The notes: generated by a model from the sequence alone, not told the origin. Shown: positions 13,868 to 14,481, counted from the first letter of the stretch. The stretch: DNA of 64,000 nt from Escherichia coli (GCF_024502345.1 NZ_JALDNN010000001.1), one strand, 5' to 3'. Translations and numbers: made by a program.

Positions 13868-14481
13868 CGAACTCCTCGCGCTTTATTATTATAAAAGCAC
13901 AACGCATTTATACTCATATTAATTAACGAAACACTGATACAGTTTGATTTATTCTTCGCTCAAACTCATTAGCTTAAATTCTTTACCCACAACTGTAGCA
14001 TATATAATATTATCAAAAGTCAAAGCTGGGACTATCAAATTTCGCTCATTTTCAAAAATACAATGTAATTTTAGCAATCATCTTAATCGCAGGTTCTCTT
14101 ATTGCATGTGAAAAATTCTGTAATGATTAGACAATAACCTCGTTCATTTATCACGCGTTATAAATGTGAAACTGGCTTCTTGCAGATGCTCTTAACCTCT
14201 ACAGGAGGATTTATCCCGCCATTTCAGAACTATCATATTTACCTTAAATGATCATTTCAGCCATATAACACGCTCAACCTCACAAATGGTTTACACTGTC
14301 TATTGTTTGGGTAATTTAAGTAAGTCAGCTACGAGCAACCTTGAGTGGGTAGCCAGCAATGGACTCAAACCCAATCAGGTGTTCAGATTGTTTCAGAATT
14401 GTATTAAAAACAATGTATTAAATAATCTGATAGCGTTTGGTCGTAGTGTGACGCAGACAGCAAGCTAATAAGGAAATGATT

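What the first reader, a model, noticed from the sequence alone, without database searches (positions are those of the whole stretch)
13868..14481. 614 bp of AT-rich non-coding DNA upstream of the orphan gene
An unusually long, A/T-tract-rich spacer separates the orphan gene start (13867, minus strand) from the divergently transcribed ybjP. A/T-tract runs such as tttattattataaaa, atatataatattatcaaaag and tcaaaaatacaatgtaatttt are typical of curved, H-NS-bound promoter DNA of horizontally acquired genes. The islet therefore probably brings its own promoter and may be silenced under laboratory conditions. The region also has to contain the displaced ybjP promoter.
Basis: inference. Interest (0 to 1): 0.4.

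Follow-up and report, generated by a model that had tools for sequence, protein, structure and literature searches.

The report
Two-part regulatory spacer of an islet
The 614-bp AT-rich gap is real and holds no maintained gene; it is the regulatory arm of an imported E. coli DNA segment, with a variable half next to a silent orphan gene and a conserved half that now supplies the start sites and long leader of the core gene ybjP.

Summary
Positions 13868-14481 are gene-free, 34.7% G+C against 50.7% for the window, and form the longest of 47 intergenic gaps nearby. A/T tracts, however, are no more frequent than the base composition predicts.

The gap lies in a ~2.5-kb low-GC segment. This segment replaced the middle of a 125-bp ybjQ-ybjP intergenic region that is conserved across genera. 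It is present in 1128 of 5426 complete E. coli genomes.

The spacer has two parts:
- **Left part (13868 to ~14150).** It is 30% G+C and hypervariable. It has one conserved near-consensus sigma-70 promoter facing the orphan gene (TTGATA-18-GATAAT, 14038 to 14009). Published Cappable-seq in O157:H7 EDL933 lists no start site for the orphan gene in eight conditions.
- **Right part (~14150-14481).** It is as conserved as the ybjP coding sequence. It carries the published EDL933 ybjP start sites, which map by exact sequence identity to 14274, 14303 and 14305.

The ancestral ybjP promoter (start site at -56 in K-12) is not in the spacer. Its remnant sits beside ybjQ, 2.5 kb away. The 60-codon ORF here has common nonsense alleles and is not a maintained gene. 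H-NS binding is plausible but untested. Overall this is an ordinary kind of element with a tidy case of promoter replacement.

The parts
11918..14458 (.). Low-GC imported segment (islet), G+C 0.33. It replaces the central ~45-50 bp of the ancestral ybjQ-ybjP intergenic region. Boundaries are approximate.
   Evidence: Homology to K-12 ends at ~11918-11927 and resumes at ~14459. The K-12 central part has no homologue at either end. The segment is present in 1128 of 5426 genomes, and 4295 have the empty site.
11893..11921 (+). Remnant of the ancestral sigma-S-dependent ybjP promoter, left beside ybjQ. The former -10 TATTAT is now CATGTT at 11916-11921. It points into the islet.
   Evidence: K-12 start site at -56. 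Cross-genus alignment of the short intergenic region. Coordinates checked. No start site is listed there in EDL933.
12068..13867 (-). Orphan gene, 599 aa, with a pentapeptide-repeat region at aa ~365-475. It is intact in this window.
   Evidence: ORF. Pfam PF13599 at E=1.4e-4. No full-length relative outside its own 50% cluster among 1.8 billion representatives. Hits that carry an organism name are E. coli or Shigella sonnei; all 120 listed are >=91% identical.
13868..14481 (.). The 614-bp spacer of the finding.
13868..14150 (.). Left, orphan-proximal part: 30% G+C and hypervariable.
   Evidence: Within-class diversity is 0.03-0.08. Divergence between the two allele classes is ~26-33%.
14009..14038 (-). 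Candidate orphan-gene promoter: -35 TTGATA (14038-14033), 18-bp spacer, -10 GATAAT (14014-14009).
   Evidence: 10 of 12 consensus match. Both hexamers are invariant in 7 alleles. Diversity dips to 0.015. No start site has been detected experimentally.
14030..14130 (.). Local predicted DNA bend, upstream of the candidate orphan promoter.
   Evidence: Wedge-model peaks of 19.5 and 14.8 degrees per turn under two parameter sets.
14151..14458 (+). Right, ybjP-proximal part: 38% G+C and conserved. It includes invariant blocks at 14222-14260 and 14278-14334.
   Evidence: Within-class diversity is 0.000-0.016, like the ybjP coding sequence. Divergence between allele classes is 8.2% against 15.3% at flanking synonymous sites.
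14264..14274 (+). Distal ybjP start site at 14274 (-208), preceded by TATAAC at 14264-14269.
   Evidence: EDL933 start site 1033043, seen in exponential salt, stationary M9 and stationary salt. Mapped by exact 56-nt identity.
14292..14305 (+). Main ybjP start sites at 14303 and 14305 (-179, -177), preceded by TACACT at 14292-14297. There is no recognisable -35.
   Evidence: EDL933 start sites 1033014 and 1033012, together seen in 6 of 8 conditions. Exact identity mapping.
14305..14481 (+). 177-nt ybjP 5' leader with a predicted conserved hairpin at 14383-14430.
   Evidence: Minimum free energy -51.1 kcal/mol, z = -2.6. The hairpin is invariant. There are no compensatory changes.
14286..14468 (+). 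60-codon ORF, probably not a functional gene.
   Evidence: Segregating sites fall 9/9/10 by codon position. Two nonsense alleles exist, and K13* is in at least 9 of 57 sequences. Its ATG lies upstream of the main start sites. Hits are from E. coli only. It is not among the translated intergenic ORFs reported for Sakai.
14459..14481 (+). Ribosome-binding region of ybjP, alignable with other genera.
14482..14540 (+). ybjP signal-peptide codons that travel with the islet. They are unlike those of every other taxon examined.
   Evidence: 13-17 differences in the first 60 nt against K-12, E. albertii, Salmonella and Citrobacter, but 0 between islet allele classes.

Best explanation
The spacer is the regulatory arm of an imported ~2.5-kb low-GC segment. 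That segment replaced the core of the ancestral divergent ybjQ-ybjP promoter region. The spacer works as two units.

1. **Orphan-proximal ~280 bp.** This part is fast-evolving, very AT-rich DNA. It contains one conserved near-consensus sigma-70 promoter (TTGATA-18-GATAAT) with a local bend upstream. This is the probable promoter of the orphan pentapeptide-repeat gene. It is kept off under laboratory conditions, most likely by H-NS-type silencing of the whole AT-rich islet.
2. **ybjP-proximal ~330 bp.** This part is conserved and supplies new start sites for the core lipoprotein gene ybjP at -177/-179 and -208. It also supplies a long, probably structured 5' leader. Together these replace the ancestral sigma-S-dependent promoter (start site at -56), whose remnant was left 2.5 kb away beside ybjQ.

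Shown:
- The replacement and its boundaries.
- The two conservation regimes.
- The ybjP start sites, measured in strain EDL933 and identical in sequence here.
- The absence of a maintained coding gene or known RNA family.

Inferred:
- That the conserved hexamers are the orphan promoter.
- That H-NS is the silencer.
- That the leader has a regulatory role.
For: - **Replacement.** The short intergenic form occurs in ~60 of 80 species and is alignable across genera. The islet is in 1128 genomes and the empty site in 4295. Boundaries come, and the lost centre is not retained at either end.
- **ybjP start sites.** K-12 starts at -56. EDL933 starts at 177, 179 and 208 nt upstream, in 6 of 8 and 3 of 8 conditions. 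Coordinates were verified on the EDL933 record and by exact identity to the window.
- **Conservation.** Right-arm diversity is 0.000-0.016 against 0.03-0.12 for the left arm and orphan gene. Divergence between allele classes is 8.2% in the right arm against 15.3% at synonymous sites.
- **Orphan promoter.** It matches 10 of 12 consensus positions. Both hexamers are invariant inside hypervariable DNA.
- **Silence.** No gene-associated or antisense start site is listed for the orphan fragments.
- **AT-richness.** TpA frequency is twice the window value.
- **Leader.** The fold has z = -2.6.
Against: - No start site has been mapped for the orphan gene, so its promoter is only a motif match. Promoter-like hits across the islet are not above shuffles (16 against 13.0 +/- 4.3).
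- In EDL933 the orphan gene is a split pseudogene, so silence there may not hold for strains with an intact gene.
- There are no H-NS data for any islet-bearing strain. There is no high-affinity H-NS motif and no A-tract excess.
- The ybjP promoters lack a recognisable -35. The position of TATAAC relative to 14274 is slightly off.
- Low diversity in the right arm could partly reflect recombination with the ybjP flank. Strain 2020CK-00188 is recombinant from ~14306 onward.
- No covariation supports the leader structure.
Confidence: 0.6

Rival explanations
1. The whole spacer is just AT-rich, H-NS-coated filler carried in with the islet. On this view the right arm's conservation is hitch-hiking or recombination with the ybjP flank, and the observed ybjP start sites are opportunistic promoters typical of AT-rich foreign DNA, not selected ones.
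For: - Recombination breakpoints fall inside the spacer. One class B strain switches to class A sequence from ~14306.
- The -10 elements are weak and have no -35.
- AT-rich DNA readily produces promoter-like sites. 16 were found across the islet, similar to shuffles.
Against: - Right-arm divergence between the two deep allele classes is about half the flanking synonymous rate (8.2% against 15.3%).
- Invariant 39- and 57-bp blocks coincide with the start sites.
- The start sites recur across conditions in triplicate Cappable-seq.
- ybjP has lost its ancestral promoter, so some new promoter is required.
Confidence: 0.2
2. The right arm encodes a small protein of 60 aa (14286-14468), or an upstream ORF that controls ybjP translation.
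For: - The ORF is intact in most alleles.
- Between allele classes pN/pS is 0.20, with three substitutions spaced exactly 3 nt apart at third codon positions.
- Some GenBank records annotate it.
- The EDL933 study assigns the -208 start site to a small hypothetical gene numbered between ybjP and the orphan gene; I take this to be the same ORF but did not verify it.
Against: - Across 57 sequences, segregating sites fall 9/9/10 by codon position, with 18 non-synonymous and 10 synonymous.
- Nonsense alleles K13* (at least 9 of 57) and Q37* exist.
- The ATG at 14286 has no Shine-Dalgarno, and it lies upstream of the main start sites at 14303/14305.
- No homologue exists outside E. coli, and there is no significant family match (best PHROG E=0.066).
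- It is absent from the 465 translated intergenic ORFs reported for Sakai.
Confidence: 0.07
3. The right arm is a trans-acting small RNA gene or a specific cis-regulatory RNA such as a thermometer or riboswitch, rather than a simple leader.
For: - The predicted fold is more stable than shuffles (z = -2.6, 2 of 200 shuffles fold as well).
- The 48-nt hairpin at 14383-14430 has no change in either stem arm across both allele classes; the single variable site (14405) is in the loop.
Against: - There is no Rfam match in the spacer at E<=1.
- There is no terminator between the start sites and ybjP.
- There are no compensatory pairs.
- It is single-copy in nearly every genome (median 1 place, at most 2), and the islet has no genuine plasmid or phage match.
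Confidence: 0.1

Closest known systems
H-NS-silenced promoter regions of horizontally acquired AT-rich genes in E. coli (for example bgl, LEE1, ybdO)
   Same: - It is a low-GC segment inside a ~51% G+C chromosome.
- The orphan gene has no detectable start site under laboratory conditions.
- Sequence diversity upstream of and within the gene is very high. This is the pattern reported for H-NS-bound regions upstream of genes (PMC4720273 abstract).
   Different: - H-NS occupancy has not been measured here.
- A-tracts are not enriched, there is no high-affinity motif, and only one local bend is predicted.
- Part of the same AT-rich spacer is actively transcribed towards ybjP.
The ancestral K-12 ybjP promoter (sigma-S-dependent, start site at -56; Lacour and Landini 2004, as cited in PMC2760140)
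   Same: It drives the same downstream gene through the same ribosome-binding region.
   Different: - The start sites lie 121-152 nt further upstream, in unrelated DNA.
- The -10 element is different (TACACT or TATAAC against TATTAT).
- The start sites are seen in exponential as well as stationary phase in EDL933.
- The old promoter is separated from ybjP by 2.5 kb.
Small O-islands of E. coli O157:H7 (strain-specific segments absent from K-12)
   Same: The same segment is present in O157:H7 Sakai (ECs0949/ECs0950) and EDL933 (RS04970), between ybjP and ybjQ.
   Different: - In this window the gene is an intact 599-codon ORF, whereas O157 has a split pseudogene.
- I found no published description of this islet's spacer.
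Promoter capture after insertion of foreign DNA (for example outward promoters of insertion sequences)
   Same: A core gene lost its own promoter through an insertion or replacement event and is now transcribed from the incoming DNA.
   Different: - There is no transposase, no terminal repeats and no tRNA.
- The incoming DNA extends into the ybjP signal-peptide codons. This suggests homologous replacement from a donor that already had this arrangement.

Membership tests
H-NS-silenced xenogeneic promoter DNA | A+T content far above the genome average over several hundred bp | tested here: met
   Spacer is 65% A+T and the islet 67%, against 49% for the window. TpA frequency is 0.093 against 0.046.
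H-NS-silenced xenogeneic promoter DNA | H-NS occupancy in vivo, with derepression when H-NS is removed | not testable with these tools
   The published maps I found cover K-12, SE11 and SE15 only (phylogroups A, B1, B2); I did not check SE11 and SE15 for the islet. No data turned up for EDL933 or Sakai.
H-NS-silenced xenogeneic promoter DNA | High-affinity nucleation motif (TCGATAAATT-like), A-tract enrichment or intrinsic curvature | tested here: not met
   Zero motif hits at up to 2 mismatches, against 1.5 expected. A-tracts number 7 against 10.8 +/- 2.3. Only one local bend is predicted.
H-NS-silenced xenogeneic promoter DNA | Target gene not transcribed under standard laboratory conditions | tested here: met
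   No start site is listed for the orphan fragments in 8 conditions in EDL933. Caveat: the gene is a pseudogene in that strain.
Sigma-70-type promoter (orphan gene) | -35 and -10 hexamers with 16-18 bp spacing | tested here: met
   TTGATA-18-GATAAT matches 10 of 12 positions. The hexamers are invariant in 7 alleles.
Sigma-70-type promoter (orphan gene) | Experimentally mapped start site downstream of the -10 | tested here: not met
   None is listed in the EDL933 Cappable-seq tables held. Some of those tables were truncated in storage.
Promoter of ybjP in islet-bearing strains | Experimentally mapped start sites inside the spacer | tested here: met
   EDL933 start sites 1033012, 1033014 and 1033043 correspond to window 14305, 14303 and 14274 by exact identity.
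Small protein-coding gene (60-aa ORF) | ORF kept intact, with substitutions biased to third codon positions across alleles | tested here: not met
   Segregating sites are 9/9/10 by codon position. K13* and Q37* nonsense alleles exist.
Small protein-coding gene (60-aa ORF) | Evidence of translation, or homologues elsewhere | tested here: not met
   It is not among the translated intergenic ORFs of Sakai. Hits are from E. coli only. No NCBIfam match, and the best PHROG hit is E=0.066.
Known RNA family or small RNA gene | Match to an Rfam covariance model, an intrinsic terminator, or covariation | tested here: not met
   No Rfam match in the spacer at E<=1. No terminator. Zero compensatory pairs. 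Allele diversity is too low for the covariation test to be decisive.
Horizontally acquired genomic islet | Absent from the orthologous site of relatives and compositionally deviant | tested here: met
   The site is short in ~60 of 80 species. G+C is 0.33 against 0.55 in the flanks.
Horizontally acquired genomic islet | Mobility signatures (integrase or transposase, tRNA target, flanking direct repeats) | tested here: not met
   No tRNA and no flanking repeats. There are no genuine plasmid or phage relatives. The three 'plasmid' hits are 0.7-4.9-Mb records labelled non-mobilizable, presumably chromosomal DNA filed as plasmids.

The most novel reading that the evidence does not exclude
The conserved 330-bp right arm is a selected regulatory module that came in with the foreign segment. 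It would comprise a new promoter set plus a structured ~180-nt leader, possibly with an upstream ORF or an antisense partner starting at 14615. On this reading about one fifth of E. coli strains control the envelope lipoprotein YbjP differently from K-12: no longer purely sigma-S-dependent, and perhaps coupled to the state of the neighbouring silenced orphan gene.
Probability: 0.2. Interest if true: 0.45.

Novelty: new member of a known kind. Interest (0 to 1): 0.27.

Why it matters
This is a clean natural example of an imported DNA segment cutting a core gene off from its conserved promoter and supplying a replacement. As a result, the same gene has different start sites and a different leader in about 21% of complete E. 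coli genomes, including O157:H7. That matters to anyone transferring K-12 regulatory knowledge of ybjP (sigma-S and envelope-stress responses) to pathogenic lineages. It also offers a compact test case for how silencing of foreign DNA coexists with an active promoter a few hundred bases away. It does not reveal a new kind of element.

Tried and rejected
- **RNA features.** Rfam at permissive thresholds gave no match in the spacer, only two sub-threshold chance hits outside it. There were no tRNAs, terminators or meaningful tandem repeats.
- **Mobile-element origin.** There was no phage match. The three 'plasmid' matches are 0.7-4.9-Mb, non-mobilizable E. coli records, presumably chromosomal DNA filed as plasmids.
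- **Retained ancestral promoter at the right end.** A MAFFT alignment hinted at this, but it failed shuffle tests under three scoring schemes.
- **The 60-aa ORF as a gene.** It looked promising from the A-versus-B comparison (pN/pS 0.20). It was rejected once 57 sequences showed uniform codon-position polymorphism and common nonsense alleles.
- **EspX3 type III effector.** I suspected the orphan gene might be this effector. EspX3' is ECs4654/4655, a different locus, and this gene is ECs0949/0950.
- **A third, more divergent allele.** The search through distant protein fragments only recovered class B again.
- **Direct H-NS data.** None found for islet-bearing strains.
- **Leader covariation.** The alleles are too similar to test it.

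Full report
**Where the spacer sits**

The window is E. coli. The local gene order is amiD (-), ybjQ (-, 11534-11857), a 599-codon orphan ORF (-, 12068-13867), the spacer (13868-14481), ybjP (+, 14482-14997) and artP.

The spacer coordinates are right:
- The GTG at 13867 is preceded by GAGGAG four bases upstream, and this is kept in every allele despite the surrounding variability.
- ybjP starts at 14482, as annotated in RefSeq.
- RefSeq annotates nothing under the 614 bp in the hit tables of two searches that each matched 1128 genomes. The only annotated feature listed is an IS1 transposase in one strain.

**Is the spacer unusual?**

Yes in length and composition:
- G+C is 0.347 against 0.507 for the window. 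Only 3% of 614-bp tiles are as AT-rich, and nearly all of those lie in this same islet.
- It is the longest of 47 intergenic intervals in 50 kb of the colinear genome.

- A4+/T4+ runs number 7, against 10.8 +/- 2.3 in dinucleotide-preserving shuffles. Long W-runs number 8, against 6.9 +/- 1.9.
- A wedge-model trajectory gives only one local bend, at about 14040-14120. The mean is barely above the window mean. The parameters were recalled from memory, so only the relative values count.
- The published high-affinity H-NS motif has no match within two mismatches.

**Origin of the segment**

K-12 has only 125 bp between ybjQ and ybjP. Of 5426 complete E. coli genomes, 4295 have that short form and 1128 have the spacer.

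Loci from 80 other species were fetched with YbjP as the query. About 60 have a gap of 96-170 bp, including E. albertii, Salmonella and Citrobacter. None encodes a relative of the orphan protein. The short intergenic region aligns across these genera along its whole length. The short form is therefore ancestral.

Boundaries in the window:
- Ancestral homology runs from ybjQ to about 11918-11927 and resumes only at 14459, which is 23 nt before the ybjP ATG.
- The intervening ~45-50 ancestral bases have no detectable homologue at either end.
- The first 60 nt of ybjP in islet-bearing strains differ at 13-17 positions from every other taxon examined. They are identical between the two islet allele classes.

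From the last point I infer that the segment arrived by homologous replacement, from an unsampled donor that already had the orphan gene and spacer upstream of its own ybjP.

There is no transposase, tRNA, flanking repeat or genuine plasmid or phage relative.

**The orphan gene**

- Pfam sees only a weak pentapeptide-repeat region, PF13599 at E=1.4e-4.
- Among 1.8 billion representatives there is no full-length relative outside its own cluster.
- Hits that carry an organism name are E. coli or Shigella sonnei, and all 120 listed are at least 91% identical.

"Orphan" is a fair description.

**The spacer is two things**

There are two deep allele classes: A in about 1100 genomes and B in about 20.

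Divergence between class A and class B, by region:

| Region | A-versus-B divergence |
|---|---|
| Orphan gene and spacer to ~14150 | 26-33% |
| Spacer 14151-14481 | 8.2% |
| Synonymous sites of five flanking core genes | 15.3% |

Nucleotide diversity within class A, 38 sequences:

| Region | Diversity |
|---|---|
| Orphan gene | 0.04-0.12 |
| Left spacer | 0.03-0.08 |
| Dip at 14000-14049 | 0.015 |
| Right spacer | 0.000-0.016 |

The right spacer is indistinguishable from the ybjP coding sequence in this measure.

**The right part carries the ybjP promoters**

In K-12 the ybjP start site is at -56, from primer extension by Lacour and Landini 2004 as tabulated in PMC2760140. Its TATTAT -10 therefore lies left of the replacement junction. 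The remnant is at window 11916-11921 as CATGTT, beside ybjQ and 2.5 kb from ybjP.

The Cappable-seq study of O157:H7 EDL933 used four media, two growth phases and triplicates (PMC10469882). It lists three ybjP start sites, which are 177, 179 and 208 nt upstream of the ATG:

| EDL933 start site | Conditions | Window position |
|---|---|---|
| 1033012 | exponential LB, M9 and salt; stationary salt | 14305 |
| 1033014 | stationary LB and acid | 14303 |
| 1033043 | exponential salt; stationary M9 and salt | 14274 |

I checked the gene coordinates on the EDL933 record. I mapped the sites to the window through 56-nt contexts that are identical in the two sequences.

- TACACT (14292-14297) precedes the main pair, and TATAAC (14264-14269) precedes the distal site. 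Neither has a recognisable -35.
- Both sit inside blocks that are invariant between allele classes, at 14222-14260 and 14278-14334.
- The resulting 177-nt leader folds better than shuffles (z = -2.6). It contains a 48-nt hairpin at 14383-14430 with no change in either stem arm. There are no compensatory changes to prove the structure.

**The left part**

The only strong promoter-like site facing the orphan gene is TTGATA-18-GATAAT on the minus strand, at 14038 to 14009.
- Its hexamers are invariant in seven alleles within otherwise hypervariable DNA.
- The predicted bend lies just upstream of it.
- The EDL933 tables list no gene-associated or antisense start site for the orphan fragments in any of eight conditions.

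This fits silencing. Two caveats apply: the gene is a split pseudogene in that strain, and some of the tables were truncated in storage. I found no H-NS occupancy data for any islet-bearing strain.

**Is there a hidden gene?**

The longest ORF is 60 codons (14286-14468, +). Between classes A and B it looks coding, with pN/pS of 0.20 and a run of third-position changes.

I then collected 57 sequences from genomes and from a metagenome scan. Across them:
- Segregating sites fall 9/9/10 by codon position.
- Non-synonymous changes outnumber synonymous ones 18 to 10.
- Two nonsense alleles exist, and K13* is in at least 9 of 57 sequences.

Further points against a functional gene:
- Its ATG has no Shine-Dalgarno and lies upstream of the main start sites.
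- It has no homologue outside E. coli and no significant family match (best PHROG E=0.066).
- It is not among the 465 translated intergenic ORFs reported for Sakai.

I conclude that it is not a maintained gene. The class-level pattern may be a relic of a coding past in the donor.

**Verdict**

The segment is foreign, it must bring its own promoter for the orphan gene, and that gene appears silent. The ybjP promoter in the spacer, however, is a new one in foreign DNA, not the displaced ancestral one. H-NS involvement remains an inference from composition.

The element is of a familiar kind. Its interest lies in the documented promoter replacement for a core gene in about a fifth of E. coli genomes.

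Noticed in passing
window 14482-14780: The 5' ~300 nt of ybjP differ from K-12 by 10-16 positions per 60 nt, while the 3' part differs by 0-2. The first 60 nt (signal peptide MRYRSLSLL...) are unlike every taxon examined but identical in both islet allele classes. The imported tract therefore reaches into ybjP.
   Followed up: partly
window 11893-11927: The remnant of the ancestral ybjP promoter sits beside ybjQ and points into the islet, antisense to the 3' end of the orphan gene. Its -10 has changed from TATTAT to CATGTT. No start site is listed there in EDL933.
   Followed up: partly
loci L012, L013, L014, L019, L026, L034 (ybjQ-ybjP gap): Other species carry unrelated low-GC insertions of 1.1-3.2 kb at the same site. 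Two Citrobacter have a 432-aa protein with an RHGxRxP acid-phosphatase motif. Citrobacter sp. FP75 has a 214-aa QnrB-like pentapeptide-repeat protein. The site looks like a recurrent insertion hot spot, and a pentapeptide-repeat gene occurs there twice independently.
   Followed up: partly
window 12068-13867 and loci L001, L002, L005, L006, L089, L090: The orphan gene is intact in this window but is often a pseudogene elsewhere. It is split in O157:H7, annotated as truncated in IAI39 and FDAARGOS_943, and frameshifted in class B. Its N-terminus is only ~64% identical between allele classes.
   Followed up: partly
window 14149 (locus L003) and hit H18: IS1 insertions occur in the spacer. In strain CUWW06 an IS1 sits at the position equivalent to 14149 and everything to its left, including the orphan gene, is deleted, while the conserved right arm is kept. 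Strain THO-008 has an IS1 inside the spacer.
   Followed up: no
window 14615, minus strand: The EDL933 Cappable-seq lists an antisense start site inside ybjP (1032702, +) in 4 of 8 conditions. It would read back through the ybjP leader towards the orphan gene.
   Followed up: no
window 11891 and ~11935, minus strand: ybjQ start sites in EDL933 lie 34 and 78 nt upstream. The distal one lies in the left end of the islet, near TTGACA-16-TAAACT (11967 to 11940). ybjQ may therefore also use islet DNA as a promoter.
   Followed up: partly
window 11968-14150: The window's islet is a mosaic. Positions 12861-13858 are identical to O157:H7, while the left spacer matches IAI39 and the 3' end of the gene matches neither. 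This indicates recombination among islet alleles.
   Followed up: no
window 45550-46400: This is the only other stretch of the window with 614-bp tiles at or below 38% G+C. It lies around the end of pdeI and the pdeI-gsiD gap.
   Followed up: no
window 15027-15063, minus strand: A sub-threshold Rfam hit to a CRISPR repeat model (25.9 bits against a gathering score of 45) lies in the ybjP-artP gap. It is probably just a G+C-rich hairpin.
   Followed up: no
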